The notes: a model not told the origin generated them from the letters alone. 64,000 bases of DNA from Candidatus Auribacterota bacterium (GCA_026392035.1 JAPLCX010000085.1:1335-65334); one strand, 5' to 3'; counted from the first letter of the stretch, positions 21,250-40,505 are shown. Numbers and translations are program-made.

Positions 21250-21260
21250 GATACCATTCC

Positions 21261-23423: not shown

Positions 23424-23428
23424 CGATT

Positions 23429-23595
23429 TAAGTTAGCTCGCTAACTTAAATCCCAAATGACAAAGCACAAATGTCAAATGAATGACAAATACCAAATGAG
23501 AGATGATAAATACCAAAGCATAAATGACAAAAATTTAAGGTTTTGTCATTGGGATTTTGTCATTTCTTTGTCATTTGAAATTTGACATTTGTCAT
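23429..23595. repeat. Gene-less inverted heptamer-array element with terminal palindrome
   Basis: TAAGTTAGC-TC-GCTAACTTA, AAATGAC-type array, then TGTCATT-type array. Confidence 0.8.
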
Positions 23596-23649
23596 TACTT
23601 ACAATCCGTGCTTTTCTGAAATTCCCTGCCTGCCGTCAGGCAGGTTTCT

Positions 23650-24588
23650 CTACGCGCCAAACAGCAAATGCCTGAAATTATCCAACGACTCGATTCCCCT
23701 CACCTCCACGGGCTGCAACGGCACCAGGGTAATCTCAAATGCGCCGAACTTTTCCTTTATCATTTTGATGTATCTTTCCTGCCCCTTCCTCCGCTCCCTG
23801 CAGAAATCGCAGTCGCTCGACCTCACCACATTATTGACCACCATCTGTCTTACGTTGATTCCCGCCACGCGCAGGCTGTTCACCAGCCGTTCCGTTTCCG
23901 CGATCGCCATCTCCTCCGGAATGGTCACCACGATGAATTGGCAGCCTTGACCATCGCGGAGCAAACCCTCGATCCGCTTTACCACCTTCTTCATTTCGAC
24001 GAGGAACTCATCTGCCCTGTCAGGCTTCGCCCGCCCCGAAAAGGCTTCAACCACTCGATGATACTTCCACCGCATCTTCGCGACCACCTTGATCCAGTCA
24101 TCGAGAATGCCGGGCAGCGTCAACAACCTCAAGGCGTGTCCGGTGGGCGCGGTGTCAACGATATACTTGTCGAATTTCCCCTCCTCCACAAGGTCGAGGA
24201 TCGTTTTGAACCCCATCACCTCGTCTATACCCGGAATAGAGAGCGCGAACACGGAATCTATGTCGGCCTTGTCAAGATAGGTCGAGCTGTCGAGAATCCA
24301 TCGTATCTCATCCCCGTACTCCGCCTTGAACCGGCAGAGCGCCTTGTCCGCGCTTACTTCAATCGCGCTCAGGTTCTGAACACCGTCAATCCCGGTTACG
24401 GCATCCCCGATGCTCTGGCCGAAACAGTCGGAAAGGGAATGGGCGGGATCGGTGGAAATAAGCAATGTCTTGTATTGCCCGGCCAAATAAAAACCTGTGC
24501 TGGATGCACAGGTCGTTTTTCCCACCCCGCCCTTTCCGCCGAATAAAATCAGCTTTAGCGCGTCATTATTTAATCCTGTGAGTGGCAT
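23650..24588 (-). CDS. ArsA/GET3-family ATPase
   Basis: GKGGVGKTT, STDPAHSL, DTAPTGH. Confidence 0.93.
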   Translation of the reverse strand: MPLTGLNNDALKLILFGGKGGVGKTTCASSTGFYLAGQYKTLLISTDPAHSLSDCFGQSIGDAVTGIDGVQNLSAIEVSADKALCRFKAEYGDEIRWILDSSTYLDKADIDSVFALSIPGIDEVMGFKTILDLVEEGKFDKYIVDTAPTGHALRLLTLPGILDDWIKVVAKMRWKYHRVVEAFSGRAKPDRADEFLVEMKKVVKRIEGLLRDGQGCQFIVVTIPEEMAIAETERLVNSLRVAGINVRQMVVNNVVRSSDCDFCRERRKGQERYIKMIKEKFGAFEITLVPLQPVEVRGIESLDNFRHLLFGA

Positions 24589-25118
24589 TTCATCACTTTG
24601 ATTTCCAGCATGCCGTTATTGTATTTTGAGCGGAGCGTATCCGCTTTAACCTTTGCCGGGAGCAGGATCTCCTTGCGGTATTTCCTTTCGCCGGATTTGG
24701 CTGAAATATCCAGGATATCCCCTTTCAAATCAACCTTGATATCCTTTTCATTCACCCCCGGCATTTCGGCGTACACCCGGATCTCTTCCTTCTCGTCAAA
24801 CACGTCGGTGATCGGTTCCCGTTCCTCCTCAACCTTCGGCCCCTGGGGAGTTTTTTTGATCTTGTGACCGAACGGCTCCACCTTGAACGGCTTTCCTCCC
24901 GTGGCAGTCCGCACGGAAAAACCGAACACCCCCTTCATGCCTTCCTTGAGCTGGCTCAGATCTATCTCGCCTTCTTTTTTGATCTCACCGCCTGATTCTT
25001 TCAGGGATTCCGCCAGGTCCACCAATTTTTCAAGCCCTTTGAACAACCCCCCCAGGCTGAATTGCCCCATACCGATGTCAAAATCCGCCCCTTCCTTTTT
25101 CTTCTTTTCCTTTGCCAT
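24570..25118 (-). CDS. Hsp20/alpha-crystallin protein (GvpH-like), copy 1
   Basis: EPITDVFDE, AEMPGV, YNNGMLEI. Confidence 0.88.
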   Translation of the reverse strand: MAKEKKKKEGADFDIGMGQFSLGGLFKGLEKLVDLAESLKESGGEIKKEGEIDLSQLKEGMKGVFGFSVRTATGGKPFKVEPFGHKIKKTPQGPKVEEEREPITDVFDEKEEIRVYAEMPGVNEKDIKVDLKGDILDISAKSGERKYRKEILLPAKVKADTLRSKYNNGMLEIKVMKCHSQD

Positions 25119-25181
25119 GGTTCCCTCCTCTCTTTATGAAATCTTGCAAGGCCTCAGTTTTTGGATCAATCCCCATGTTCC

Positions 25182-25242
25182 GTAGGGGCGTGATTTATCG
25201 CGCCCGATATAATTTCTCGGGTTCGATGAATCGAACCCCTAC
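25182..25242. repeat. GTAG-type REP doublet
   Basis: GTAGGGGCGTGATTTATCGCGCCC and inverted GGGTTCGATGAATCGAACCCCTAC. Confidence 0.8.
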
Positions 25243-25321
25243 AGTACTGTATTAACAAGCCTTTTAGTGATGGATTTGAAATCTTGTCTTTTTTTCTTCT
25301 CTGTGATATTATTCTAACAGG

Positions 25322-25558
25322 GTGACAAATATGAAAACTCAAAAAATCGAAACAATTCGTAAAAAGTTCCATAGAGAATGGCTTTTGATCGCATTAGATA
25401 AAATGGATGAAAGAAGAACCATACCATTGACCGGCAGACTTCTGGCTCATAGTCCCCATCGGGATGAGGTTTATGCAAAGTCCTCTCGTTATAGAGGACA
25501 CGCATTGGTTGTTTATTCTGAGGATGGTTTCCCAAAAGGTTACGCTGCTGCTTTTTAA
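25322..25558 (+). CDS. Small hypothetical protein (DUF5678-like) upstream of the protease
   Basis: EWLLI...G.LLAHS..R pattern; stop lies 1 nt before the next ATG. Confidence 0.65.
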   Translation: MTNMKTQKIETIRKKFHREWLLIALDKMDERRTIPLTGRLLAHSPHRDEVYAKSSRYRGHALVVYSEDGFPKGYAAAF

Positions 25559-25559
25559 T

Positions 25560-25955
25560 ATGGCCAAACAATCCCTGCAAAAGATAATTCTTAAAGAAGG
25601 GATAATCTCTATTTATGTTGTGCTCAAAGGCCATATTACTTCGCGTACTATAAAAATGGCTCTGGATACAGGAGCCACTTATACTATGATACCCATAGAA
25701 ATCGCCAGGGATATAGGTTACGATCCCACTCTTACCAAAAGACGAATTGAAATTTCTACTGCTAATGGATTGATTTTCGTACCTCTGATTACAGTCCTGG
25801 AAATAAGTTTTATGGGGCTCACCCTGAAAAGTATCGATGTAATCTGTCATAACTTACCTTCTGAAAGTCCGGTGGAAGGCCTGCTCGGTCTCAACTTTTT
25901 AATCCACCTGCCTGCATTTATTGAGTTTTATCAGAAAATCCATTCTCATATCTAA
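25560..25955 (+). CDS. Retropepsin-like (clan AA) aspartyl protease
   Basis: ALDTGATYT, TANG, GLLGLNFL; ATG 25560. Confidence 0.88.
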   Translation: MAKQSLQKIILKEGIISIYVVLKGHITSRTIKMALDTGATYTMIPIEIARDIGYDPTLTKRRIEISTANGLIFVPLITVLEISFMGLTLKSIDVICHNLPSESPVEGLLGLNFLIHLPAFIEFYQKIHSHI

Positions 25956-25980
25956 AACCATCCGTCTGTTTCCAGCCTCA

Positions 25981-26058
25981 GGGTCACACCCTGAATACTA
26001 ACTATGAATGCTCGTCCAAAACCTGCTATGGTCTAAGTCAGTATTCAGGGTGTGACCC
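25981..26058. mobile_element. 78-bp REPIN/MITE-like element, copy 1
   Basis: 23-bp inverted arms (GGGTCACACCCTGAATACTAACT, 1 mismatch in the right arm) around a 32-bp spacer. Confidence 0.85.
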
Positions 26059-26071
26059 CGAATGTGATCAT

Positions 26072-26650
26072 TTAATCCTGTGAGTGGCATTTCATCACTT
26101 TGATTTCCAGCATGCCGTTATTGTATTTTGAGCGAAGCGTATCCGCTTTAACCTTTGCCGGAAGCAGGATCTCCTTGCGGTATTTCCTTTCGCCTGATTT
26201 GGCTGAAATATCCAGGATATCCCCTTTCAAATCAACCTTGATATCCTTTTCATTCACCCCCGGCATTTCGGCATACACCCGGATCTCTTCCTTCTCGTCA
26301 AACACGTCGGTGATCGGTTCGCGTTCCTCCTCGACCCTCGGCCCCTGGGGAGTTTTTTTGATCTTGTGGCCAAACGGCTCAACAGAGACCGGCCTGCCTC
26401 CGAGCGCGGTTTTTACAGAGAAACCAAAAACCCCCTTCATCCCTTCCTTCAGATGACTCAGGTCTATCTCGCCCTCTTTTTTGATTTCGCCGCCTGATTC
26501 TTTCAGGGCTTCCGCCAGGTCCACCAATTTCTCAAGCCCTTTGAACAACCCCCCCAGGCTGAATTGCCCCATACCGATGTCAAAATCCGCCCCTTCCTTT
26601 TTTCCGCCATGGGCGGCTCCGCCTCCGGCGGGCTTCTTCCCCTTTATCAT
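26072..26650 (-). CDS. Hsp20/alpha-crystallin protein (GvpH-like), copy 2
   Basis: Nearly identical to 24570-25118 apart from the N-terminus. Confidence 0.88.
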   Translation of the reverse strand: MIKGKKPAGGGAAHGGKKEGADFDIGMGQFSLGGLFKGLEKLVDLAEALKESGGEIKKEGEIDLSHLKEGMKGVFGFSVKTALGGRPVSVEPFGHKIKKTPQGPRVEEEREPITDVFDEKEEIRVYAEMPGVNEKDIKVDLKGDILDISAKSGERKYRKEILLPAKVKADTLRSKYNNGMLEIKVMKCHSQD

Positions 26651-26756: not shown

Positions 26757-27065
26757 TTAATAATTTATAGTTTCAATGTTCTGCAAAATCCTCTTTTTAT
26801 TCTCCTTAATCTTCTCTTGTGTCCTCTCTTTTCTTCTCTTGAGTTTAAGAAGCCAGCTCTTTTCTGTTATATCTTTACCTTGTTTTGTCAGGCTGCATAT
26901 TCCTTTAAAGGCATCAAAATCAACAAAACCATTTCTCTCTAACCCCTTGCAGATCACATACGCATAGTGAGAACTGATTCTTAATCCCTGGGCTATTAAA
27001 TAGTAATGAAGCCTATCCCCATTTTTAGCTATGACATCCAGGGTTTCCTGCTCCATGCCGGTCAT
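26757..27065 (-). CDS. Hypothetical protein, winged-helix-like N-terminus and basic tail
   Basis: IAQGLRISSHYAYVICKGLERNGFV...LTKQG pattern. Confidence 0.55.
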   Translation of the reverse strand: MTGMEQETLDVIAKNGDRLHYYLIAQGLRISSHYAYVICKGLERNGFVDFDAFKGICSLTKQGKDITEKSWLLKLKRRKERTQEKIKENKKRILQNIETINY

Positions 27066-27728: not shown

Positions 27729-28106
27729 TTATCCTGCAACTACGCCTATCCCCCTGCATTTTGAACAGGGAAGACCGCATCCTTTCTCCCGGCCTCTTCC
27801 TTTGCAGGAAAGGCATACCTCAACCTTCTTGGTATGCACGTTTACAACGCCTTTTCCACGGCAGACAATACAGGCAAGGTCGGGATTCAGATGCGATTTC
27901 CCCGTACCATTACAATAAGCGCATATCACCGCAGGCGGTTGAATATTTATAGTCCCGACGCCTGAACAAACAAAACAGCTTGTGCTTTTCTTGGAAGGCA
28001 TAAACCCTCTTCCGCCACAAAATCCACATCTATAGACGTGTTTACTTAGGACTTCTCCTCTCCTGCCTGCCTTTTGACTTTTGAAATCAAAGGTTTTCCA
28101 CATCAT
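27729..28106 (-). CDS. Stand-alone DnaJ-type zinc-finger protein
   Basis: Six CxxCxGxG repeats. Confidence 0.85.
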   Translation of the reverse strand: MMWKTFDFKSQKAGRRGEVLSKHVYRCGFCGGRGFMPSKKSTSCFVCSGVGTINIQPPAVICAYCNGTGKSHLNPDLACIVCRGKGVVNVHTKKVEVCLSCKGRGREKGCGLPCSKCRGIGVVAG

Positions 28107-28696: not shown

Positions 28697-29668
28697 CTAT
28701 ACTACAGAGGTTTCTTTCTCGGATTTCTGTCCAATCTTCTCTGCGCTCCTGGCCTTGCCAAGTTCCTTTTCCACAAGATCTCTGACTACTTCTTTCACCC
28801 TGGCTTGATTCGTCCTTGAGCCAACCCGGCTTGTCTCAGATGCCAGGATATCCTGACACATCTTCAGGAACCCATCTGAGTTGGAAGGAGTCATATTCTG
28901 GACTTTAAGCGTTTTTGCAATCATAATACAGCCGCGGATGGTTGGAGCGAATTCGCACTTTCCCGATTCCCTCAAGCCCCTGACAATATTAACTACCTTC
29001 TCGGCATGGTGTTTTGAGAGCTTGGATTTCGCCTGGGTTATTGCCAGCTCTGTCTCATAGTCAAAGTGCTCCAGGTCCATGGTAATCATTCTATCCCTTA
29101 GCGCATCCTGACTCCTGTGTACCCCGGCATATTCCTCAGGGTTGGAGGTAAAAACAGCGGTAAAATCAGGATCAACCCTTAAATATGGTTCTTCTCCACC
29201 TCTTCCCACCGGCAAATCCATCATCTTCTCCTGAAGGATGGAGAGGAGAATATTATTAGCTTCCGGGCGCGACCGGGTGAATTCGTCATAGATCAGCGTA
29301 AATCCGTACTTACAGGCAACGGTCAGCCGGTTATCCACCCATCTCTTTATCATATCCTCTTCTACCTTCAAAACCCTGGATACAAAGCGGTCAACCACCT
29401 TTCTGATTCGATAGCCATACTCGCCACCGACTAAATCAGAGGTGGTAAACTCTTCATCTCCATGAATCATCACCACCGGCCGTCCTATTTTACTCGCGAT
29501 ATGCATAGCCAACGTTGTCTTGCCGGTGCCGGATACCCCCCTGAAGTGAACCGGAAAGCCGGCCTTAATATAGGAAAGGCTCCTATCGGTAACATCCTTG
29601 ATATACTTGGTTTCCACAAAGTCCGGCAGAGGACTTGGCTCCAATACTGTGGTCATCTCATCAACCAT
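28697..29668 (-). CDS. gvpN: Gas vesicle AAA+ ATPase GvpN
   Basis: HFRGVSGTGKTTLA, YDEFTRS.PEANN.LL, TSNPEEYAGVH..QDAL.DR. Confidence 0.96.
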   Translation of the reverse strand: MVDEMTTVLEPSPLPDFVETKYIKDVTDRSLSYIKAGFPVHFRGVSGTGKTTLAMHIASKIGRPVVMIHGDEEFTTSDLVGGEYGYRIRKVVDRFVSRVLKVEEDMIKRWVDNRLTVACKYGFTLIYDEFTRSRPEANNILLSILQEKMMDLPVGRGGEEPYLRVDPDFTAVFTSNPEEYAGVHRSQDALRDRMITMDLEHFDYETELAITQAKSKLSKHHAEKVVNIVRGLRESGKCEFAPTIRGCIMIAKTLKVQNMTPSNSDGFLKMCQDILASETSRVGSRTNQARVKEVVRDLVEKELGKARSAEKIGQKSEKETSVV

Positions 29669-29674
29669 TTTATA

Positions 29675-30073
29675 TCACCCCTTTTCTGTTTGTCTGCCTG
29701 CCCGCCGAAGCCCTGGCGCAGGCAGGGAATTCGATTTCTTGCTTCTTAGAGTCTCATTCATTTTGTTCCAGGTTCTGCTTGCTTCAGCCAAATCTGCTTT
29801 TATTTCCTGCTCTTTCTTCTTAAAGTCTTTCCTCAGGGCATTGACATTTTTGATTAGCTCATCTCTCTTCCTTTGTAAATATGCTTTTTGCTCTTTAGCC
29901 ATTTCCTGATGAAACTTCCTGGAATCAGCTAAAAACTTCCTGGCATTATCTTGAACAGCGGCAGCTTGTTTCTTCAGCTCTCTGATGCCGCTCTTTCTAT
30001 CTTCGTGACCTGTTATAATATTTTCACAGATAGATTTCATGTCGCCTGATACATTCCCATGGACCAGCCTCAT
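29675..30073 (-). CDS. Helical GvpC-like protein (short paralogue)
   Basis: Related N-terminal I.E.II...E.R...I.EL motif and amphipathic helix; ATGA overlap with the upstream stop. Confidence 0.5.
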   Translation of the reverse strand: MRLVHGNVSGDMKSICENIITGHEDRKSGIRELKKQAAAVQDNARKFLADSRKFHQEMAKEQKAYLQRKRDELIKNVNALRKDFKKKEQEIKADLAEASRTWNKMNETLRSKKSNSLPAPGLRRAGRQTEKG

Positions 30074-30390
30074 TTGCGAACAACCCCTTTGCCCCCGCAT
30101 TTGATACAAGGTAACCCACTATCTATCTCTGCGCCAGTACCTTTACATTTAGGGCACTCTTCGGCAGCGCCTTTAACTGTGACCATACCTTTGCCATCAC
30201 ATACAGTGCAGGTAACCCGGGCATTATGAGGATAGACACCGGTTGCGTTACAAAAAGCGCATTTAATCGCCGGCTCCACAACCTCAACCTTACCTGTGCC
30301 TCCGCATACCTGACAGGTGGCAAGCTCGGATAGCAGATTAAACGGGTCTATACCTTTTCCTTTACAAAAAGCGCATCTTATTTTGCCCAA
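30070..30390 (-). CDS. Stand-alone DnaJ-type zinc-finger protein
   Basis: Six CxxCxGxG-type repeats. Confidence 0.85.
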   Translation of the reverse strand: MGKIRCAFCKGKGIDPFNLLSELATCQVCGGTGKVEVVEPAIKCAFCNATGVYPHNARVTCTVCDGKGMVTVKGAAEECPKCKGTGAEIDSGLPCIKCGGKGVVRK

Positions 30391-30414
30391 TTTCCACCTC
30401 CCCTCACCCTGGCC

Positions 30415-30795
30415 TTCCCCCCATCGTCTCCCCCTTTGGAAAAGGGGGTTAGGGGGGATTTTCCCCCTTCCGCCAATCCCCGGCTAAATCCCCCCTGCCC
30501 CCCTTTGCTAAAGGGGGGGGAATTGGAGGGCCTTCGCCACCTTCATTGCCTTCTCCCCCCGTTCCCCCTTTTGAAAAAGGGGGCTATGGGCACGGCCCCC
30601 TCTTTGGAAGATTTGCTCTCACCCTGTTCCCCCCTTTGAAAAGGGAACTATGAGGGCGGATCCCTCTTTGGCAGATCTGCTTTCACCCCGTTCCCCCCTT
30701 TGTTAAAGGGGGGGAGAATTGGAGGGCCTTCGCCACCTTCATTGCCTTCTCCCCTCGTTCCCCCCTTTGGAAAAGGGGGGTTAGGGGGGATTTGA
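30415..30795. repeat. Cluster of CCCCCTTT-N2-4-AAAGGGGG hairpins with an internal duplication
   Basis: About eight hairpins; GGAGGGCCTTCGCCACCTTCATTGCCTTCTCCCC appears twice (~30523 and ~30721). Confidence 0.85.
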
Positions 30796-30858
30796 GAAAT
30801 CTCCTCCACCACCGCCGCCTGCCGGTCCTTCAGACAGGCTTCCCAGTCAGGGGCGAGT

Positions 30859-31443
30859 TTATCCTCTCTTCTTTGGTCTTCCTCTTTTCTTTTTCGGCTT
30901 CGCGACAGCCTCTTCAACAGTCTTTACCCCAGCCCTGGCTTCGACCCCGATAGGCTTGCCGCCTCTTCTCTTTGCCATGGCAGCGGACATCGCCCACCAA
31001 TTTGCCGCCATCCTGCCGTTCTCATCCGCTAACCCCTTCAACATCTTCCTGGTGCCATTCACTAAATCCGCCGCAAACTTGGCAAGATCCTTCCTTTGTT
31101 CCTCGCTCATATCAGCGTGGGCGTCGGAAAACTCTTTCAGCTTGTTTCTGACGTGCGTCTCGATATCTTTAGTGTTCTTCGCGAGACTCTTTCTGAGGTC
31201 GTCGGTCATTTCCTTGTGATCTTTCTGAAACCCGCCAAGGAGATTTCCGACATTCTTGGTCAGATCTCCCACGAAGCCCCCCAGAAATTGAGCCTGTTCC
31301 GCGCTCATCTTCTTCCTATCGGACGTAAAGCCATTCAGCGTCTCATGAACATCGCCCACAAGTTGCCCGAGTGACTTTACCCTGAGATCATACGAGGATA
31401 TGATATCCTCAGTGATCCTCTTTATGCCATCTGCTATTCCCAT
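30859..31443 (-). CDS. GvpC-like 33-aa repeat protein
   Basis: Three exact 33-aa repeats starting FTSDRKKM, FQKDHKEM and FSDAHADM; basic tail KKRGRPKK. Confidence 0.65.
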   Translation of the reverse strand: MGIADGIKRITEDIISSYDLRVKSLGQLVGDVHETLNGFTSDRKKMSAEQAQFLGGFVGDLTKNVGNLLGGFQKDHKEMTDDLRKSLAKNTKDIETHVRNKLKEFSDAHADMSEEQRKDLAKFAADLVNGTRKMLKGLADENGRMAANWWAMSAAMAKRRGGKPIGVEARAGVKTVEEAVAKPKKKRGRPKKRG

Positions 31444-31466
31444 ATCATCCTCCTTTCCTTGTTCAC

Positions 31467-33376
31467 GGTACTGTCAAAATTTTTATCTTAAATATTGCCT
31501 AACTCACTAGAGTTAAGCATGTTGCTGCAAAATTAGCTTCCTCCCCCTATTTTCAGGGGTTTTTACCCTCTATTTCACCCCCAGGAGTTATCCACATGAG
31601 CCCGAGGCCGAGCGTTTCTGCAGAGCTCGGCTCGGCGAGGGTCCCGCCACGGCGGGATGGGTAACTCCGTGCTCTGAAATCCTTTTTCGCGTATAATTAC
31701 CGCATTGCCCTCTCTACAAAAGGAGCATGTCACCCATGAAAAAGCTCGATCGCTTTATCATCTGGATCTGCAGCAAGTTTAACCGCAAAGAAATCGAATT
31801 CATTGTCGCAGGCCTTGTCAGAATCCTCGTCGATCGTAACCCGGAAGTTAAACCGCGCGATGATTTCAAAGAGAAACATCCAAACTACCGCAACTTCTCC
31901 GTCGATCCCTTGCCGCCAATATCAGAACCCCTTAAAAAAAAGATCGAACTTGTTCTTGGAAAGAACTTCTTGCGCGATATCCCAAAGAACACGGCAAACC
32001 GTTAGAACCTGTTTCCCATCGATCTCAGAAACTTCTCGTCCCAAAACACATCAAATGCCCCTGCTGCAACGCCCCACATCGCTACCTCTACTACAACGAT
32101 GGCACTCGTCGTTCTCAAATCCGTTGCAAAGTCTGTTACACCCTCTCACAAATTGGCAAACACAAACGGCAACCCAAAACAGCCTTCTGGTGCCCCTACT
32201 GTCACAATGCGCTCTACCTCTGGAAACAAAAACCTCTCTTTACCATCTATAAGTGCTGCAACGATAACTGCCCCCGCTATCTCGAGAACCTCAACAAGCT
32301 CAACCCAAGCGAGAAAAAAGAACGTAGAAAGCGCGTATCTCAGTTTAAACTCTGCTACCAATACCGCGTCTATCACTTCAAAGATCAACAACTCGCTCCC
32401 TCTTCACCTATGCAACCGACAGTCGATTTAAGCCGCATCCATGCCCATCCCAGCCTCGTCGGCCTTATCCTTACCTTCCACATATCCTTTGCTCTCTCCG
32501 CCCGCAAAACCGCGCTCATGCTCAGACAGGTGTTCAATATCCGCATCTCTTATCAGACCGTCCTCAACTACTCCGAAGCCGCAGCCTATTGGTGCCACCG
32601 CTTCAATCGCAACTTCAAAGGCTCTATTGATACGATAGCTGCCATTGATGAAACATACATCAAGGTCGCGGGCAAATGGGCATTTACCTTCCTGGCTGTC
32701 GCCATCCGCTCACTTAAAATTATTGCCTATCATGTCGCGCATGATCGCTCTGTTCTTCCCGCCGTCTGCGCCCTTAAAGAAGCCATCAGAACCGCTCACC
32801 CCATGCAATCTCTTACTCTCGTCAGCGATGGCAACCCTTCTTATGGCGATGCCACCCATTTCGTCAACTCCTCCAAAAACGGCCACCCTCTCAAACACCG
32901 CAAGGTAATCGGCCTGCAAAACCTTGATCAGGAGTCAGAAACCTATCGCCCTTTCAAACAAATAATCGAACGCCTCATGCGTACTTACAAGTCCCATACC
33001 CGCTCAGCGTGTGGCTTTGACTCATTCTACGGCGCCATAATCCTCACCACTCTCGTCGTTACTCACTATAACTTCTTAAGACCGCACAGCAGCCTAGGCT
33101 ACAAAACACCTATCGTCATCGATGATCTTCAGTCTATACCCACCATCCAGGATCAGTGGTGTAAGATCATCGACATATCGATGAAGCTTGCTGCGTAGCT
33201 GATCCTCTTGTCAAAGAGCTTTACTCAACCTCAGGATAACTCTGCCTCTTACCTGCTTATTACCGCTCTCGTCCCGTACTTATCGCCTCGCAAAACCTCT
33301 GTTCCCCATACCTCCGCTATCGCTTACCCCTATATCTCGTCACTTCCTAACCTTTCATAGAACTTTTGACACTACC
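31467..33376 (+). mobile_element. IS6-family-like insertion sequence (1910 bp)
   Basis: TIRs GGTACTGTCAAAATTT and (reverse complement) GGTAGTGTCAAAAGTT; 8-bp TSD TTGTTCAC at 31459-31466 and 33377-33384. Confidence 0.9.
31727..33198 (+). CDS. DDE transposase with zinc-finger N-half, split by a -1 frameshift at an A8G tract
   Basis: Frame 2 from 31727; frame 1 is open from ~31939 to 33198 (CPCC, CKVC, CPYC; IDETYIK, SDG, IER). Confidence 0.85.
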
Positions 33377-33422
33377 TTGTTCACCGTTTAAAACCGCTTA
33401 TGTAAAAGAGCGGGGAGTATTC

Positions 33423-34163
33423 TTATCCTTTCTTACCCTTCCTCCTGCCTCCTTTCTTCCCAGGCTTTTTAACTGCATCTTCAACTGTGGTTACCTTCTC
33501 TCCAGCTTCAACCTTAACCAGCTTAGCTCCTTTTCTTTTGTCCATCGTAGCTGCCATGTCTTGCCAATTAGCAGCCATTTTCTCTCTTTCATCTGAAAAA
33601 CCACCTAGCAGTTTCTTTGTTTCACTGACAATACCAGCTACATACTTGGCCAACTCTTTCTTGAGCTCTTCGCTCATATCCGCATGCGCATCAGAGAATT
33701 CCTTGAGCTTGTTTTTAACGTGGGTCTCGATGTCCTTGATACCTTTTCTAATGTCCCCCATCATAGCCTTAAAGCCCTTAATTCTATCTGCTTCTCCTTT
33801 CTCAAGCCCTTCCTCAAGATTGTCAGCCATCTCTTTATGGGCCTTCGCTATTGCTTTCATCATGGTGCCAACATTTTTAGTGAGGTCTTTTACGAAGTCA
33901 GTCAAACTTTCTGATAACTCCTCACTCATTTCTTTATGCTCTTTCTGGAATCTTTTAAGCGTGCTTTCCACGTTTTTCGACAGATCCTCGACGAAATCGG
34001 CTAATGACTTAGCCTGTTCCGCGCTCATTCTCTTCCTGTCTTGCGTGAAGCCTTTTAAGGTCTTTTGGGTATCAGCCACCAGCTCACCGAGCGCCTTTAC
34101 CCGCAGATCATACGAGCCGATGATATCCTCGCCCAACCTTTTCATGCTATCTGCAATACCCAT
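33423..34163 (-). CDS. GvpC-like 33-aa repeat protein (long paralogue)
   Basis: 33-aa repeats FTQDRKRM, FQKEHKEM, IAKAHKEM, FSDAHADM; paralogue of 30859-31443. Confidence 0.65.
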   Translation of the reverse strand: MGIADSMKRLGEDIIGSYDLRVKALGELVADTQKTLKGFTQDRKRMSAEQAKSLADFVEDLSKNVESTLKRFQKEHKEMSEELSESLTDFVKDLTKNVGTMMKAIAKAHKEMADNLEEGLEKGEADRIKGFKAMMGDIRKGIKDIETHVKNKLKEFSDAHADMSEELKKELAKYVAGIVSETKKLLGGFSDEREKMAANWQDMAATMDKRKGAKLVKVEAGEKVTTVEDAVKKPGKKGGRRKGKKG

Positions 34164-34315
34164 AACTCCCTCCTTACTTTGTCTTTTCCTCTCTCCCCCT
34201 GCAAACAACCATCCGCGAGTGATACGAGTCTAGAAATCACCTATCTATATAAACCCCGGGAGGGTGATTTTTCTCTCTCCCGCTCCTCCCCCCGAGAGTA
34301 AATTACATTATGCAC

Positions 34316-34399
34316 GTTAGCTCGCTTTGGCTCGCTAATTAAAACCCTAAATCCTAAACCCGAAACTCTAAACAAATCCAAAACCCAAAAACCCAAACA
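34316..34399. repeat. GTTAGCTCGCT palindrome variant plus AAACCCT/AAATCC heptamer-like array
   Basis: Resembles the element ends at 15333 and 23429. Confidence 0.6.
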
Positions 34400-34430
34400 A
34401 AGACGCATGGACGATGAAAAAATTCCAAAG

Positions 34431-35114
34431 TTATTGTAATCCCGAGGCAGCAAAAGCATCTCCGGAACAAGTCCCCTGTGCTACCGAAGCGTACTCACTC
34501 CGATCACTGATCTGATCAGTCTCTTTCTGATACCGGAGCTGAATTTCCTGAACCGCCATCTTTAAATCTTTCACCTGAAGTTTATCACCCTTGGCCAGGA
34601 GACCCCTCAGGGATGCGAGAAGTTCCTGCTGTTCCTTCTCAAATTCATACAGCGCGCCCACAACCTCGTTCTTTCTCCGCTCTGTTTTTTCAAGAATCCG
34701 CCGTATCGTCTCCTGGAATTCTTTAACCCGCCGCGACTCCCCCCTGCCCAGAGAGCTCCTCAATTCATCAAGCTGTTCTCTCAACATCCTCGCCATCTCT
34801 CTCTGTTCGTCGAAATAACCATCCAGCAGATCGCGCACTTCCCTCTCCCGTTCCTCCTGCGCTGACACCACGCCATTCATCATCCCGTCAAAATCCCTCT
34901 TTCTTAGAGAACCGTTCTGGGCGAGAAGTTCGCGCAATTCCCCATTGGCATATTCGCGCTCCCTGTGTACATCAAGAAAAGATTCCTCAAAACCCTTGAG
35001 AAGCTGCTGCGTGGTGTCGCAAAGGGATTCAAACTCCCGTATGCGGGTGTCATAAGAGCCGAGCGCACTATCAATTATCGCTCGTACGTCACTGGATAGG
35101 GCTGCTTTTTTCAT
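34431..35114 (-). CDS. Coiled-coil protein, distant GvpC-like paralogue
   Basis: Directly downstream of gvpA; shares SYD.R...L with the repeat proteins. Confidence 0.55.
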   Translation of the reverse strand: MKKAALSSDVRAIIDSALGSYDTRIREFESLCDTTQQLLKGFEESFLDVHREREYANGELRELLAQNGSLRKRDFDGMMNGVVSAQEEREREVRDLLDGYFDEQREMARMLREQLDELRSSLGRGESRRVKEFQETIRRILEKTERRKNEVVGALYEFEKEQQELLASLRGLLAKGDKLQVKDLKMAVQEIQLRYQKETDQISDRSEYASVAQGTCSGDAFAASGLQ

Positions 35115-35212: not shown

Positions 35213-35419
35213 TTACGCCGCTGACGCGGTAAGGCCGATCGCCTCGGCATACTTCAGGTACGTCTCGACTGATGCAACCACGACCCTGGCTTCAACAGCG
35301 AGCAGCTCAATACCCACCAACGACACTCTCACCCAGGCATCAACCACGATGCCCTTATCCAGTATCCGGTCGATAACCTCAACCAGGCTGGATGAACCGA
35401 TCGTTTTCTCTACTGCCAT
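35213..35419 (-). CDS. gvpA: Major gas vesicle protein GvpA (copy 2)
   Basis: [55 protein letters not shown]. Confidence 0.98.
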
Positions 35420-35523
35420 GTTAATTCACCTCCTTCCCTTATTGGATTTTTGCTGCAAACTCCTCGATGCCACTCACTCAAATCCCCCCTGCCCCCCTTT
35501 TCTAAAGGGGGAAAGAGGGGGAT

Positions 35524-35730
35524 TTACGCTGCCGACGCGGTCAGGCCGATTGCTTCGGCATACTTCAGGTACGTCTCGACTGATGCCGCCACGATTCTGG
35601 CTTCAACAGCGAGCAGCTCAATACCCACCAACGACACTCTCACCCAGGCATCAACCACGATGCCCTTGTCCAGTATCCGGTCGATAACCTCAACCAGGCT
35701 GGACGATCCGATCGTCTTTTCCACTGCCAT
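35524..35730 (-). CDS. gvpA: Major gas vesicle protein GvpA (copy 1)
   Basis: Same as copy 2 except I46/A48; GGAGGTGA RBS before ATG 35730. Confidence 0.98.
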
Positions 35731-35814
35731 TTGACTCACCTCCCTTCACTTAGTATTCCGCTTTGGACTGAGGAGCGGTCAACCCCGATTTTATACTCTT
35801 GATTCAATAGCGCG

Positions 35815-36028: not shown

Positions 36029-36044
36029 AGCAATAATCATGCCA
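36029..36044 (-). promoter_or_regulatory. sigma54 (-24/-12) promoter of the gvp operon
   Basis: Minus strand TGGCATGATTATTGCT. Confidence 0.75.
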
Positions 36045-37114: not shown

Positions 37115-38236
37115 ATGAAATACATCTGGGAGCGCAGAAATTGGTTTGATTTTAAATATGACGATGCCGTCTTGCTCAAGCCCTTGAGCCATCTGCGAGT
37201 CTTGCAGGGGAAATTATTGGGCCGCATTGCCTCTCTTGATATTAAGCTCGAGACCGAAGCTCAGGGGGCTATTCTGGTTGAAGAAGCCGTCCGCACCGCA
37301 GAAATAGAAGGACAAAAGCTTAATCGGGACGCAGTTCGCTCATCGGTGGCTGTAAGGCTTGGCTTGCCGCGCGGTATTGGTACTCACGATAGGAATGTTG
37401 ACGGCCTTGTGGATGTTTTGCTTGATGCCGTTTGTTTTCACGATAAGCCTTTGACGCTGGAGCGACTTAATGGCTGGCATGCGGCATTGTTTCCTTCGGG
37501 TTACTCCGGTTTAAAAAAAATAATTGCAGGGGAACCACGGGGTAATGCGCCTATGCAGATAGTTTCCGGCCCCATCGGTAAAGAAAGGGTGCATTTTGAA
37601 GCGTTGCCGGGGGAGCACCTCGATGAAGAAATGCGTCTCTTTGTAAAATGGTGGGATTTGTCGCCAGGCCGCATGGATGGCATATTGCGCGCGGCCGCTG
37701 CCCATCTGCGTTTTGTGACAATTCACCCTTACGAAGATGGTAATGGCCGTTTGGCAAGGGCTTTAACGGACATGGCTTTGGCGCAAGACGAAAAATTAAA
37801 AGTCAGGTTTTACAGTGTCTCGTCTGAGATTATGCGCTCAAGAGACGAATATTATAAAATCCTTGAGGATGTGCAAAGATGCCGTCTCGATGCCACGAAA
37901 TGGTTTATATGGTTTATCAAATGCGTCACGGCATCCATTGAGCATTCCAGAGATATCATCGCCAACGTATTCATACGATTTGACTTTTGGAATCAGCACA
38001 CCCAGACACAACTTAACGAGCGTCAGAAAAAAGTTCTAAACCGCATCCTGGATGCCGGGCCCGGCAATTTTGCCGGCGGTCTGACAACGCGCAAATACGT
38101 AAGTATTGCCAGGGTCAGCCGCTCCACCGCTTTTCGTGAAATCGCAGATATGCTCGATAAAAATGTCCTGCGCCAATTACCCGGCAAGGGCCGTAGCGTT
38201 CATTACGATTTGGTTTGGCCAAGGATGGACAAGTAG
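37115..38236 (+). CDS. Fic-family protein (DUF4172-Fic-HTH type)
   Basis: HPYEDGNGRLAR; C-terminal SRSTAFREI..ML HTH. Confidence 0.92.
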   Translation: MKYIWERRNWFDFKYDDAVLLKPLSHLRVLQGKLLGRIASLDIKLETEAQGAILVEEAVRTAEIEGQKLNRDAVRSSVAVRLGLPRGIGTHDRNVDGLVDVLLDAVCFHDKPLTLERLNGWHAALFPSGYSGLKKIIAGEPRGNAPMQIVSGPIGKERVHFEALPGEHLDEEMRLFVKWWDLSPGRMDGILRAAAAHLRFVTIHPYEDGNGRLARALTDMALAQDEKLKVRFYSVSSEIMRSRDEYYKILEDVQRCRLDATKWFIWFIKCVTASIEHSRDIIANVFIRFDFWNQHTQTQLNERQKKVLNRILDAGPGNFAGGLTTRKYVSIARVSRSTAFREIADMLDKNVLRQLPGKGRSVHYDLVWPRMDK

Positions 38237-39098: not shown

Positions 39099-40505
39099 TC
39101 ATTCTATTCCTTCACCATTGATAGATATACCCAGCTTCTTCATTTTCCGGTACAGCGCCTTCCTGTTCATCTGCAACATCTTCGCCGCTTTGACCTTGTT
39201 GCCTCCCGCCAGCGCGATTGCCTTTGTGATAAGACTCCTTTCAACCCTCCCCCTGATTTCCTCAAAGGAGGCGCCCTCGTTCAGATCCACCTTCAATTCC
39301 AGGCTTTCTTCCACATCGTTAACCGCCTCCAGCGGCGCCCCCGGCGCATCAGGGGACATGTACTCCGGTTCAATAACCCCCCCGCCGGCCATCAGGACGG
39401 CTCTTCTCACCATGTTCCTGAGCTCCCGCACATTACCCGGGTAACCATACTCAAGCAAATATCCAACCGCCGCTTTAGAAAAACCTTCCGCCTTTTTTCC
39501 GAACTCCTCATTCGCCTCTTTTAGAAAATGGTCGGCGAGCATGACAATATCGTCTTTCCTCTGACGGAGGGGAGGAAGCGCGATGCAAAACTCATTGAGG
39601 CGGTGGAAGAGGTCCTGCCGGAACTTCCCCCGTTTTACCCATTCCGTCAAATTGACGTTTGTCGCCACAATCACCCTCACATCAACATCCACACCCCTTC
39701 TCCCCCCCAGATGTTGTATCCTGCGTTCCTGAAGCGCCCGGAGCAGTTTCACCTGCACATTTTCGGTGAGATTGCCTACCTCATCCAGAAAGATGCTGCC
39801 TCCCTGCGCCTGCTCGAATTTACCCTCCTTCAGGGCATCCGCGCCCGTGAAGGCTCCCCGCTCATGGCCGAAGAGCTCGCTCTCTACCAGCGTCTCAGGG
39901 ATCGCTCCACAGTCAACTGCGACGAACGGCTTGTCCTTCCGCGGGCTGCTCTCATGAATCATCTGCGCGAGCAGTTCCTTGCCGGTTCCGCTCTCACCCT
40001 GGATCAGAACGGTCATAGTGGTCGGCGCGACAATTTTGGCCTGGCTTATCACGCGCATAATCACACTGCTTTTCCCCATTGACTGCTCCAGGGCGGTCTT
40101 CTCCCCCAATCTCTTCCTCAGTATCTCCACCTCTCTGCTCAGATAGTGCGACTGGAGCGCTTTCCTGATCACAAGGACCAGCTCCTCGTTATCGAACGGC
40201 TTCGTAATGTAATCGAACGCGCCCAATTTCATTGCTCGCACCGCGTCTTTCACCTCGCCGAACGCGGTAAGCATTATGATGATAAGATTCTTATCAATCC
40301 TCTTCATCTCCTCTAAAAGCTCAACCCCATCCATCCCGGGTAGCTTGATGTCCAGCAAGGCCAGGTCCGGCCTGACCTTCTTGACCTTTTTAATCGCGGC
40401 TTTCCCATCTTCAACAGCGAACGTGTCAAACCCTTCTTCCCTCAGGATATCAGAGAGGGTCATGCGCAAATCGGCGTTATCGTCTACAATTAAAATGGAT
40501 TCCAT
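39099..40505 (-). CDS. sigma54-dependent NtrC/AtoC-family response regulator
   Basis: REC, GESGTGKE, GAFTGA, LDEVG, PGNVREL, Fis-type HTH. Confidence 0.96.
   Translation of the reverse strand: MESILIVDDNADLRMTLSDILREEGFDTFAVEDGKAAIKKVKKVRPDLALLDIKLPGMDGVELLEEMKRIDKNLIIIMLTAFGEVKDAVRAMKLGAFDYITKPFDNEELVLVIRKALQSHYLSREVEILRKRLGEKTALEQSMGKSSVIMRVISQAKIVAPTTMTVLIQGESGTGKELLAQMIHESSPRKDKPFVAVDCGAIPETLVESELFGHERGAFTGADALKEGKFEQAQGGSIFLDEVGNLTENVQVKLLRALQERRIQHLGGRRGVDVDVRVIVATNVNLTEWVKRGKFRQDLFHRLNEFCIALPPLRQRKDDIVMLADHFLKEANEEFGKKAEGFSKAAVGYLLEYGYPGNVRELRNMVRRAVLMAGGGVIEPEYMSPDAPGAPLEAVNDVEESLELKVDLNEGASFEEIRGRVERSLITKAIALAGGNKVKAAKMLQMNRKALYRKMKKLGISINGEGIE

What the first reader, a model, noticed from the sequence alone, without database searches (positions are those of the whole stretch)
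29675..35114. Divergent GvpC-like family with exact 33-residue periodicity and basic, AT-hook-like tails
Seen: three consecutive 33-aa repeats in 30859-31443, four in 33423-34163, a related N-terminal motif in four paralogues, and tails KKRGRPKKRG and KKGGRRKGKKG. Known: cyanobacterial GvpC has 33-aa helical repeats that bind the GvpA shell; RGRP is the AT-hook core. Inference: shell-strengthening proteins of different lengths whose tails may tether vesicles to DNA or other polyanions.
Basis: partly seen in the sequence, partly recalled or inferred. Interest (0 to 1): 0.7.

Follow-up and report, generated by a model that had tools for sequence, protein, structure and literature searches.

The report
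GvpC-like gas-vesicle proteins, DNA-binding tails
Four related helical-repeat genes between gvpA and gvpN of a gas-vesicle operon belong to a large, unnamed family from uncultured anaerobes; its 33-residue repeats line up in register with those of the shell-strengthening protein GvpC, and its C-termini carry interchangeable nucleic-acid-binding modules, which hints that these cells tie their gas vesicles to DNA.

Summary
B (30859-31443) has four and C (33423-34163) five in-register 33-residue units; C's third unit carries an 18-residue insert. All four paralogues share an N-terminal head, and both basic tails are present. The genes lie on the minus strand in a large gvp cluster. The order gvpA, D, C (one or two copies), Zn-finger, A, gvpN is nearly invariant in 34 loci from many phyla, all uncultured. 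The family has about 1,350 clusters at 50% identity and no Pfam or NCBIfam model.

It does not match the GvpC model PF01304. However, a cyclic profile comparison of the 33-mers finds one register (p about 2e-4). In it, the GvpC residues that contact GvpA fall on the family's most conserved, chemically similar positions.

The AT-hook reading fails: RGRP occurs in 1 of 53 basic tails. The broader idea is strengthened. Close relatives replace the polybasic tail with a winged-helix domain (AF2 pLDDT 95). A few carry histone-H1-like PAKK repeats or a helix-hairpin-helix.

Best reading: these are GvpC-like shell binders with a nucleic-acid-binding end, analogous to the phasin PhaF. Nothing is experimentally shown. 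Novelty: new variant of a known kind.

The parts
35524..35739 (-). gvpA copy 1 (71 aa), first gene of the operon
   Evidence: The reading frame was found. Its DNA is 90% identical over 229 nt to copy 2 (repeat D1). Copy 2 is the one scanned against the protein-family libraries.
35213..35419 (-). gvpA copy 2 (68 aa). Helix alpha2, the docking site of GvpC, is conserved.
   Evidence: Pfam Gas_vesicle E 6e-16 and NCBIfam GvpA E 3e-39. phmmer E 5.5e-32 to A. flos-aquae GvpA (8GBS), 59 of 68 aligned residues identical. The stretch [12 protein letters not shown](I/V)GLT, with E52 and E59, is retained.
34431..35114 (-). Paralogue D (227 aa): shared head motif, then a 58-residue repeat, no basic tail. 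It always sits directly after gvpA.
   Evidence: hhalign to the family profile gives probability 97%, E 1e-10. A D-type gene follows gvpA in 30 of the 34 loci, all those that include gvpA. Lag 58 is the top lag in 25/30 orthologues.
33423..34163 (-). Paralogue C (246 aa): head 34059-34163, five repeat units 33510-34058 (33, 33, 51, 33, 33 residues), polybasic tail 33426-33470.
   Evidence: Shine-Dalgarno AAGGAGG lies before the ATG at 34163. There are 383 homologues at E<=1e-3. AF2 predicts all-helix for residues 3-210 and a disordered tail, at low confidence (pLDDT 57).
31464..33379 (+). IS element inserted between C and B. It has 23-nt terminal inverted repeats and an IS6-like DDE transposase (32410-33198).
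   Evidence: Inverted repeats 31464-31486 and 33357-33379. DDE_Tnp_IS240 E 4e-10; NCBIfam IS6 at 84 bits, below its cut-off. In other loci with two full-length C-type genes these are close together: about 60 bp apart in L003 and about 55 bp in L008.
30859..31443 (-). Paralogue B (194 aa): head 31339-31443, four 33-residue units 30943-31338, polybasic tail 30862-30900 that contains RGRP.
   Evidence: B is 47-50% identical to C.
30070..30390 (-). DnaJ-type CXXCXGXG zinc-finger protein (106 aa), a conserved neighbour (ZnF1).
   Evidence: Pfam DnaJ_CXXCXGXG E 2e-12. It follows the C-type gene in most loci.
29675..30040 (-). Paralogue A (121 aa from MKSICEN): shared head plus about two helical units, with a mildly basic end.
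   Evidence: hhalign to the family profile gives probability 92.5%, E 5e-7. Orthologues of 106-107 aa lie between ZnF1 and gvpN in 8 loci, with shorter relics in others.
28697..29668 (-). gvpN (AAA+ ATPase), the downstream boundary of the block.
   Evidence: NCBIfam TIGR02640 E 5e-99.

Best explanation
B and C, and more distantly D and A, belong to a widespread, unnamed family of accessory gas-vesicle proteins. They work like GvpC.

Proposed mechanism:
1. After a conserved 35-residue head comes a long amphipathic helix built of 33-residue units, in some units extended to 51 residues.
2. This helix lies along the ribs of the GvpA shell. Each 33-mer spans about four GvpA subunits and contacts GvpA helix alpha2 through one conserved hydrophobic/H-R stripe.
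3. Copy number (2-5 units) sets how many subunits are bridged.
4. The C-terminus is a separate module that projects from the vesicle and binds a polyanion, most likely nucleic acid without sequence specificity.
5. In B and C that module is a disordered K/R/G tail. In close relatives it is a winged-helix domain, and in some distant ones histone-H1-like PAKK repeats or a helix-hairpin-helix.
6. The protein would therefore coat or strengthen the vesicle and also couple it to the nucleoid, as the phasin PhaF couples PHA granules.

Shown here: the repeats, the family, the synteny, the register-specific similarity to GvpC, the winged-helix fold of the alternative C-terminus, and the module swapping.

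Inferred: shell binding (my estimate about 0.7), nucleic-acid binding (about 0.55), and any physiological role of a tether.
For: Position.
- The order gvpA, D, C (1-2 copies), ZnF, (A), gvpN is nearly invariant in 34 loci. The bins are labelled Nitrospirota, Omnitrophota, Planctomycetota, Latescibacter, Cloacimonetes, Elusimicrobia, delta proteobacteria/Thermodesulfobacteriota and others.
- No canonical GvpC is present. tblastn of Anabaena GvpC against the window and all loci gives only five weak hits, and all five lie inside C-type genes.

Geometry.
- The period is exactly 33, or 33+18.
- Copy number is 2-5 units.
- The hydrophobic-moment peak at 98.5 degrees (3.65 residues per turn) is coherent over 200 residues, so the units stay on one helix face.
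- Huber et al. 2023 (PMC9994262) report that one 33-residue GvpC repeat spans four GvpA subunits, 49.5 A against 50.8 A.

Target surface. This GvpA matches A. flos-aquae GvpA at 59 of 68 residues, with helix alpha2, E52 and E59 conserved.

Register-specific similarity to GvpC.
- One best cyclic shift scores 12.4; the next best scores -0.4.
- Column-permutation and hydrophobic-pattern-preserving nulls each give p about 2e-4.
- The reversed GvpC profile scores at best -2.2.
- The seven contact or conserved GvpC residues map to L/I, M/L, L, H/R, L/Q, L and F/Y.
- hhalign of natural tandem units finds the same register (P 0.001), as does the best whole-protein local alignment.

C-terminal module.
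- Among 120 close homologues, at least 53 have polybasic tails and at least 45 have a 57-residue domain.
- That domain folds at pLDDT 94.7 as helix-strand-helix-helix-strand-strand.
- It superposes on Z-alpha, MarR, IclR and FtsK-gamma winged helices at TM 0.85-0.94.
- MarR_2 is matched by 17 of 26 members, best E 7e-7; EutK_C by 8 of 26.
- Distant members carry PAKKPAPK repeats (Pfam HC2 E 1e-3) or a GIGP helix-hairpin-helix (HHH_5 E 8e-3).
- Tail type switches at least 20 times on a tree of the shared core, and C's nearest relatives (64-70% identity) include both kinds.
- The tail of C is predicted to be disordered.
Against: - No match to PF01304 among the hits returned at E<=1 for A, B and D, or among the 25 of 101 families shown for C. 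The fragment scan at E<=10 likewise returned none. Whole-protein hhalign to GvpC gives only 5.8%.
- The unit-level similarity is small in absolute terms. The GvpC profile rests on 13 mostly Nostocales-type units.
- Any long hendecad amphipathic helix could bind other surfaces. Weak hits to apolipoprotein, phasin and SF-assemblin models show how generic the composition is.
- The AF2 model of C has low confidence (pLDDT 57), so no fold argument is available for the repeats.
- All Pfam hits for the C-terminal modules are below the gathering thresholds.
- The winged-helix domain has net charge about -1 and follows an acidic linker. Winged helices can also mediate protein-protein contacts.
- Every source is a MAG, a SAG or a metagenome contig, so there is no microscopy, proteomics or genetics.
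- D, which sits nearest gvpA and is always present, has no basic module. It could be the real shell binder, leaving B and C with another role.
Confidence: 0.45

Rival explanations
1. The proteins bind the shell, but the basic end does not bind DNA. It binds the acidic outer face of the same or a neighbouring vesicle, or polyphosphate, RNA or anionic lipid. It would then increase affinity or bundle vesicles into clusters.
For: The tails are generic K/R/G-rich and disordered, with no conserved motif. The GvpA outer helix alpha2 displays glutamates E52 and E59. Histone-H1-like AlgP is reported to space polyphosphate granules (PMC9239181), so polyphosphate is a plausible partner for such tails.
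Against: The tail is repeatedly exchanged for folded modules whose known relatives bind nucleic acid: winged helix and helix-hairpin-helix. This is hard to explain by simple charge attraction to the shell.
Confidence: 0.17
2. They are soluble, phasin- or apolipoprotein-like chaperones or scaffolds. They shield hydrophobic GvpA during assembly or nucleate vesicles, and are not stable components of the mature shell.
For: There are weak profile hits to PhaP_Bmeg, apolipoprotein and apolipophorin-III. The cluster is rich in chaperone-type genes: two Hsp20, ArsA, Cdc48-type AAA, DnaJ zinc fingers and a GvpF-DnaJ fusion. Several paralogues with different periods (33, 47, 58 residues) suggest different partners.
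Against: An exact 33-residue period with whole-unit copy-number variation, and a single preferred register against GvpC, are expected for a lattice binder rather than a chaperone. A nucleic-acid-binding end has no obvious use in a chaperone.
Confidence: 0.15
3. They are coiled-coil transcription regulators of the gvp operon, and the C-terminal module is a conventional DNA-binding domain.
For: Relatives have a winged-helix C-terminus of MarR/IclR type.
Against: More than half of the family, including B and C, has only a low-complexity basic tail with no specificity element. Paralogues D and A have none. The repeats vary in copy number. The cluster lies near its own NtrC-type sigma-54 activator.
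Confidence: 0.07
4. They are true, very divergent GvpC orthologues that only strengthen the shell. The C-terminal modules are lineage-specific decorations with no common function.
For: Same operon slot, same period and same register as GvpC.
Against: At least 110 of 120 close homologues, and most intact distant ones, carry one of a small set of nucleic-acid-type modules at the same point after the conserved VKTVEEAV motif. This argues for selection on a shared property.
Confidence: 0.1

Closest known systems
Cyanobacterial GvpC (Pfam PF01304, Gas_vesicle_C)
   Same: - Gene lies downstream of gvpA and upstream of gvpN.
- All-helical, with tandem 33-residue repeats of variable number.
- Hydrophobic stripe on one helix face.
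- One preferred register places GvpC's GvpA-contact residues on conserved, similar residues.
- The GvpA helix alpha2 that GvpC docks on is conserved here.
   Different: - No significant sequence-profile match.
- A distinct, conserved 35-residue head shared by three orthologous groups.
- 18-residue inserts give 51-residue units.
- The stripe is more hydrophobic (F, M, L where GvpC has T, Q, Q).
- A conserved C-terminal region ends in a nucleic-acid-type module that GvpC lacks.
- Three to four paralogues per cluster.
PhaF of Pseudomonas putida (and PhaM of Ralstonia): phasins with a histone-H1-like DNA-binding C-terminus
   Same: Two-part design: an N-terminal amphipathic helix that coats an intracellular inclusion, and a basic, disordered, lysine-rich C-terminus. 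PhaF is described as interacting with the nucleoid and contributing to granule segregation (PMC3574117 and PMC7590123, found). Some members of the present family have PAKK-type repeats like PhaF and AlgP.
   Different: The organelle is different (a protein-shelled gas vesicle, not a polyester granule). There is no sequence relationship beyond weak phasin-like composition. PhaM's properties are from my own knowledge, not checked here.
EutK, a bacterial microcompartment shell protein with a C-terminal helix-turn-helix domain
   Same: A protein of a proteinaceous organelle shell carries a small winged-helix-type domain. Pfam EutK_C is matched by 8 of 26 C-terminal domains, best E 1.6e-5, and PDB 3i71 appears in the profile search.
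   Different: The shell-binding part is unrelated (BMC domain versus helical repeats). The ligand of the EutK domain is itself not established (from my own knowledge).
AT-hook (Pfam PF02178)
   Same: B's tail contains RGRP flanked by K/R.
   Different: The core is absent from C and from 52 of 53 basic-tailed homologues. No Pfam hit was returned. The conserved feature is charge, not the motif.
Apolipoprotein / apolipophorin-III / PhaP_Bmeg / YtxH (COG 'GvpP') type 11-residue amphipathic repeats
   Same: Hendecad-based amphipathic helices and weak profile hits. Some JGI records call homologues 'gas vesicle protein', probably through such a hit.
   Different: All but two isolated hits are below the curated thresholds: SF-assemblin for C (31.2 vs 30.6 bits) and ApoLp-III for the distant member P0262 (38.8 vs 36.3). 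The proteins have no transmembrane anchor, a strict 33-residue super-period, and are encoded inside gvp operons.

Membership tests
GvpC (PF01304 Gas_vesicle_C) | Significant match to the family's sequence profile | tested here: not met
   PF01304 was not among the hits returned for A, B and D at E<=1, or among the 25 of 101 families shown for C. It was also absent for two repeat fragments of C at E<=10 (25 of 32 families shown for one fragment). The same scan scored Anabaena GvpC at E 1e-75 as a positive control. hhalign of the family against GvpC gives probability 5.8%.
GvpC (PF01304 Gas_vesicle_C) | Tandem 33-residue alpha-helical repeats | tested here: met
   B has 4 units and C has 5, one with an 18-residue insert. 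Lag-33 z is 6.7 and 9.4. The family-wide top lag is 33 or 51. AF2 secondary structure is all-helix.
GvpC (PF01304 Gas_vesicle_C) | Conserved one-face residues L4, F11, L12, R19, Q26, L30, F33 that contact GvpA (Huber et al. 2023) | tested here: inconclusive
   In the single best cyclic register these map to L/I, M/L, L (0.80), H (0.67)/R (0.30), L/Q (0.33), L (0.90) and F/Y. p is about 2e-4 against two nulls, and the reversed control is negative. The result is compatible with remote homology or with convergence. The GvpC profile is built from only 13 units.
GvpC (PF01304 Gas_vesicle_C) | Gene in a gvp cluster next to gvpA, before gvpN | tested here: met
   Seen in the window and in 34 related loci.
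GvpC (PF01304 Gas_vesicle_C) | Binds the outside of the GvpA shell and raises the critical collapse pressure | not testable with these tools
   This needs purified vesicles. It is the decisive experiment.
AT-hook (PF02178) | R-G-R-P core in a basic context, conserved among orthologues | tested here: not met
   RGRP is present in B only. It occurs in 1 of 53 basic-tailed homologues, and no Pfam AT_hook hit was returned.
Winged-helix DNA-binding domains (MarR/IclR/Z-alpha-like); applies to relatives' C-termini, not to B or C themselves | Helix-strand-helix-helix-strand-wing-strand fold with a basic recognition helix and wing | tested here: met
   AF2 pLDDT is 94.7 with H3-12, H20-27, H31-43, E47-50, E53-56. 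Foldseek TM is 0.85-0.94 to Z-alpha, MarR, IclR and FtsK-gamma. MarR_2 is matched by 17/26 members. The wing lysines K46 and K49 are nearly invariant. No such domain is encoded in the window in any frame.
Winged-helix DNA-binding domains (MarR/IclR/Z-alpha-like) | Actual nucleic-acid binding | not testable with these tools
   The Z-alpha specificity residues Asn173 and Tyr177 (identified from my own knowledge of ADAR1) align with G and K in the profile alignment. So this is a generic winged helix, not a Z-DNA binder. EMSA is needed.
PhaF-type phasins (functional analogue, not a sequence family claim) | N-terminal inclusion-binding amphipathic helix plus a C-terminal lysine-rich histone-H1-like DNA-binding tail | tested here: inconclusive
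   The architecture matches: helical repeats plus a disordered K/R tail. True PAKK repeats occur only in distant members P0134 and P0251 (Pfam HC2 E 1.4e-3, below threshold). PhaP_Bmeg hits are below threshold.

The most novel reading that the evidence does not exclude
Gas vesicles of many uncultured anaerobic bacteria are physically tethered to the nucleoid by a GvpC-like shell protein. Its C-terminus is an interchangeable non-specific DNA-binding module: polybasic tail, winged helix, H1-like repeats or helix-hairpin-helix. This would give these cells a built-in system for positioning and equal inheritance of a buoyancy organelle, a principle so far described for PHA and polyphosphate granules and carboxysomes but not for gas vesicles. 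No paper combining 'gas vesicle', 'nucleoid' and 'tether' in that sense was found.
Probability: 0.33. Interest if true: 0.8.

Novelty: new variant of a known kind. Interest (0 to 1): 0.62.

Why it matters
- GvpC is the only well-understood accessory shell protein of gas vesicles. It is also the handle used to tune and functionalise vesicles as acoustic reporters.
- A second, much larger and more diverse family would broaden that toolbox. This one has about 1,350 clusters at 50% identity across many phyla, the same 33-residue ruler, a different head, variable unit lengths (33, 51, 58, 47) and modular C-termini.
- It would also test the idea that the 33-residue period is dictated by the GvpA lattice (four subunits per unit).
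- If the C-terminal modules bind DNA, gas vesicles would join the inclusions that bacteria hitch to the chromosome for partitioning.
- How vesicles are positioned and inherited is essentially unaddressed, and this would give that question a concrete candidate.
- These genes are currently 'hypothetical protein' in every source examined, so the work also supplies an annotation.

Tried and rejected
- Full-length AF2 model of C: pLDDT 57, helices only, no trustworthy tertiary structure, so it was not used for fold search.
- AT-hook: rejected because RGRP is not conserved.
- Z-DNA binder: Z-alpha domains top the sequence and fold searches, but the Z-alpha specificity residues are not conserved in the alignment. 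I treat the domain as a generic winged helix.
- Frameshift idea: I asked whether basic tails are frameshifted versions of the acidic linker plus winged helix, or whether a hidden winged helix lies downstream. tblastn finds winged-helix coding sequence only in the 10 loci where it is in frame, and none in the window.
- Stand-alone 102-aa protein at 26757-27065: I asked whether it is the detached winged helix. hhalign gives 10%, so this is not supported.
- Homology to haloarchaeal or plasmid-borne gvpC: tblastn of C against 72,556 plasmids gave no match. The IS region had no DNA match there either.
- Close homologues of D by word-indexed search: only 5 besides itself, so D orthologues were taken from the syntenic loci instead.
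- Source organism: only a Logan contig from run ERR15302223 was found. There is no rRNA, tRNA or Rfam hit in the window.
- Sigma-70 promoter and terminator scans were at background level.
- Commensurability of 51 and 58 residues with six and seven GvpA subunits: noted only as arithmetic, not used as evidence.

Full report
**Setting.** The finding lies on the minus strand inside a gas-vesicle (gvp) cluster that runs from about 35.7 kb down to about 14.7 kb.
- The gene order is two gvpA copies (35524-35739, 35213-35419), D (34431-35114), C (33423-34163), an inserted IS element, B (30859-31443), a DnaJ-type zinc-finger gene (30070-30390), A (29675-30040) and gvpN (28697-29668).
- Downstream follow small ORFs, a second zinc-finger gene, a GvpA/J-like gene, two Hsp20 genes, ArsA, a Cdc48-type AAA ATPase, a GvpF-DnaJ fusion, four further GvpF/L genes, GvpO, a second GvpA/J-like gene and GvpK.
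- B and C each have AAGGAGG 6-7 nt before their ATG. Homologues start at the same MGIAD, which fixes the start of C at 34163 rather than at the upstream TTG.

- Against 300 shuffles, lag 33 is the strongest self-similarity in B (z 6.7) and C (z 9.4).
- Written in rows from residue 36, B is four in-register 33-mers. C is five units, and its third carries an 18-residue insert, making it 51 residues.
- The hydrophobic moment peaks at 98.5 degrees (3.65 residues per turn) and is coherent over 200 residues. This is an 11/3 hendecad pattern that keeps successive units on the same helix face. The family median is the same.
- B and C are 47-50% identical.
- D and A are distant relatives: hhalign of the family profile gives 97% (E 1e-10) for D and 92.5% (E 5e-7) for A, through the shared head (..DI..SYD.R...L......L.GF) and first units.
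- D-type orthologues repeat at 58 residues (25 of 30) and A-type at 47 (7 of 8). The exact 33-residue period therefore belongs to the B/C type only.
- The tails read as reported.

**The family.**
- A word-indexed search with C found 383 homologues, nearly all unnamed.
- An exhaustive profile search found 1,350 cluster representatives at E<=1e-3, 600 at E<=1e-10 and 134 at E<=1e-30.
- No Pfam or NCBIfam model covers them. All but two isolated hits fall below the curated thresholds, and all are to generic amphipathic-helix families such as apolipoprotein, PhaP_Bmeg, SF-assemblin and SpiroCoCo.
- A scan of one genome per GTDB species returned 34 loci, all MAGs or SAGs. The bins are labelled Nitrospirota, Omnitrophota, Planctomycetota/Pirellulales, Ca. 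Latescibacter, Cloacimonetes/Ca. Celaenobacter, Elusimicrobia, delta proteobacteria/Thermodesulfobacteriota, Syntrophorhabdus, Chrysiogenales and others.
- Mapping the window's proteins onto them shows a nearly invariant order: gvpA, D, C (one or two copies), ZnF1, (A), gvpN, o68, o104, ZnF2, Hsp20, ArsA, Cdc48, GvpF.
- D, C and A are thus three conserved orthologous groups occupying the slot where cyanobacteria keep gvpC.
- I found no paper describing them.

**Relationship to GvpC.**
- Membership by sequence profile fails. PF01304 was not among the hits returned for A-D (for C only the best 25 of 101 families were shown) or for two repeat fragments of C.
- In the same scan Anabaena GvpC, written from memory, scored 1e-75. 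Long stretches of that sequence were later found verbatim in database proteins carrying PF01304.
- Whole-protein hhalign against GvpC gives 5.8%.
- Both proteins are 33-periodic, so I compared them as cyclic profiles: 349 unique family units against 13 GvpC units, all 33 rotations, ungapped.
- One rotation stands out at 12.4. The next best is -0.4, and rotations by whole helical turns score -3 to -9.
- Permuting GvpC columns, taking the maximum over rotations, gives -5.1 +/- 3.5 (p about 2e-4).
- A null that keeps the hydrophobic pattern fixed also gives p about 2e-4. The reversed GvpC profile reaches only -2.2.
- Huber et al. (PMC9994262) identified GvpC residues that are conserved and contact GvpA. 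In the best register they map as follows:

| GvpC residue | Family column, main residues (frequency) |
|---|---|
| L4 | L/I |
| F11 | M/L |
| L12 | L (0.80) |
| R19 | H (0.67) / R (0.30) |
| Q26 | L/Q (0.33) |
| L30 | L (0.90) |
| F33 | F/Y |

- hhalign on natural tandem pairs finds the same register (P 0.001, probability 22%). So does the best local whole-protein alignment.
- The only tblastn hits of GvpC in the window plus 34 loci (five, best E 0.008) all fall inside C-type genes.
- I read this as either very remote homology or convergence on the same surface. The data cannot separate the two.

**Why a GvpC-like mechanism is plausible.**
- Huber et al. infer that one 33-residue GvpC repeat spans four GvpA subunits along a rib (49.5 A against 50.8 A), docking on helix alpha2 with Glu52 and Glu59.
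- The GvpA encoded here matches A. flos-aquae GvpA (8GBS) at 59 of 68 aligned residues. It keeps [12 protein letters not shown](I/V)GLT, including both glutamates.
- Copy number varies from 2 to 5 units among homologues, by whole units, as is known for GvpC.
- This step remains inference. No binding has been shown, and the AF2 model of C is only a set of low-confidence helices (residues 3-76, 81-122, 124-159, 165-210) with a disordered tail.

**The C-terminus.**
- The AT-hook reading does not survive. RGRP occurs in one of 53 basic-tailed homologues, a near-copy of B.
- After the conserved ...MAANWQ..A.MAKRRGGKP..V.AG..VKTVEEAV.. motif, homologues end in one of two ways. One is a K/R/G-rich tail (at least 53 of 120). 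The other is an acidic linker plus a 57-residue domain, consensus LE.KVL.FI..HP.GVKVGDMEEPLGV.R.RLG.IAK.LL.EGKVRKEENLYFPL (at least 45 of 120).
- That domain folds with pLDDT 94.7 as helix-strand-helix-helix-hairpin.
- It superposes on Z-alpha, MarR, IclR, TtgV and FtsK-gamma winged helices at TM 0.85-0.94.
- By sequence, 17 of 26 members touch MarR_2 (best E 7e-7) and 8 touch EutK_C. The PDB profile search lists ADAR1 Z-alpha, IclR and EutK.
- The Z-alpha specificity residues are not conserved, so it is a generic winged helix. Its wing lysines are nearly invariant.
- In the 34 loci, every locus with a complete C-type gene has at least one copy ending in a basic tail or a winged helix. One locus (L008) has one copy of each.
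- Among 140 more diverse representatives I counted about 48 polybasic, 16 moderately basic and 42 winged-helix-like. Two have PAKKPAPK histone-H1-like repeats (Pfam HC2 E 1.4e-3) and one has a GIGP helix-hairpin-helix (HHH_5 E 8e-3). The rest are truncated or different.
- On a neighbour-joining tree of the shared core, winged helix versus non-winged-helix needs at least 20 changes among 117 proteins (random labels need 31-37). C's closest relatives (64-70% identity) include both types.
- No out-of-frame winged-helix remnant follows basic-tail genes.
- Repeated exchange among modules whose known relatives bind nucleic acid is the main argument that the conserved property is polyanion binding, probably DNA. 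All Pfam hits involved are sub-threshold, and the inference is indirect.

**Most likely mechanism and rivals.**
- I favour a two-part protein. A GvpC-like helical ruler lies on the GvpA ribs, and a projecting nucleic-acid-binding end couples vesicles to the nucleoid.
- The closest functional analogue is the phasin PhaF. It has an N-terminal granule-binding amphipathic helix and a C-terminal histone-like tail, and is described as interacting with the nucleoid and aiding granule segregation (PMC3574117, PMC7590123). AlgP on polyphosphate granules is similar (PMC9239181).
- EutK, a microcompartment shell protein with a winged-helix tail, is a structural precedent.
- My estimates are shell binding about 0.7, nucleic-acid binding about 0.55, and both together about 0.45.
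- Rivals:
  - the basic end binds the acidic vesicle surface, polyphosphate or RNA and clusters vesicles (0.17);
  - the proteins are phasin-like assembly chaperones in a chaperone-rich cluster (0.15);
  - they are plain GvpC orthologues with incidental decorations (0.10);
  - they are transcription regulators (0.07).
- D lacks any basic module and always follows gvpA, so it may be the constitutive shell binder. B and C would then be the tethering versions.

**Verdict.** This is a new variant of a known kind, a large unannotated family of GvpC-like proteins with modular nucleic-acid-binding ends. It is of real interest to gas-vesicle biology and engineering, and directly testable with vesicle rebinding, collapse-pressure and EMSA assays.

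Noticed in passing
window 31464-33379: An IS element of about 1.9 kb sits in the short spacer between paralogues C and B. It has 23-nt terminal inverted repeats and an IS6-like DDE transposase on the opposite strand (32410-33198). Inside a minus-strand operon it may be polar on B, ZnF1, A, gvpN and everything downstream.
   Followed up: partly
window 30412-30796 and 35475-35524: Clustered REP-like palindromes (CCCCCTTTGGAAAAGGGGG with GGGGGGATTT flanks) fill the 470-bp gap after B and the spacer between the two gvpA copies. They give rise to spurious ORFs that translate as PPF.KGG.
   Followed up: partly
window 36030-36044 (-) and 39099-40505 (-): A sigma-54-like -24/-12 element (TGGCAT-N5-TTGC, one mismatch) lies about 290 bp upstream of the first gvpA on the coding strand. 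An NtrC-type sigma-54 activator (receiver + Sigma54_activat + HTH_8) is encoded 3 kb further upstream. The motif count in the window is not above chance (6 found, 4 expected).
   Followed up: partly
window 20206-21264 (-): A GvpF/L protein is fused to a DnaJ J-domain (GvpL_GvpF E 3e-56 plus DnaJ E 2e-7). Two stand-alone DnaJ-type CXXCXGXG zinc-finger proteins lie at 30070-30390 and 27729-28106. Together these suggest that an Hsp70 co-chaperone function is distributed over the cluster.
   Followed up: no
window 21261-26650 (-): Two Hsp20 paralogues whose domain also matches ArsA_HSP20, an ArsA/Get3-type ATPase and a Cdc48-type double AAA ATPase sit in the gvp cluster. They are syntenic in most of the 34 related loci. 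This looks like a chaperone/insertase set for hydrophobic GvpA.
   Followed up: partly
window 26757-27065 (-): A 102-aa protein has a weak MarR_2-like N-terminus and a basic coiled-coil end. It is also present in the Ca. Celaenobacter locus L023. It is not detectably related to the winged-helix C-terminus of the family (hhalign 10%).
   Followed up: partly
window 34431-35114 and 29675-30040; D/A orthologues in L001-L034: The D-type paralogue has a conserved 58-residue repeat and the A-type a 47-residue repeat. Both are built from the same L.GF...H..M and KGE.DR.K.F modules as the 33- and 51-residue units of B and C. The meaning of the different periods is unknown.
   Followed up: partly
protein P0136 (distant family member, not in the window): Its C-terminus reads C-x9-C-x11-C-x2-H within a lysine-rich stretch (..KCAGTTKSGKNCKGKSVKGSKFCAVHKR). 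This may be a small zinc-binding module, yet another kind of C-terminal end in the family. No Pfam hit.
   Followed up: no
window 18122-18514 (-) and 37115-38236 (+): A 23S-rRNA-intervening-sequence-type four-helix-bundle protein gene sits inside the gvp cluster. A Fic/DOC-domain protein with DUF4172 lies just upstream of it.
   Followed up: no
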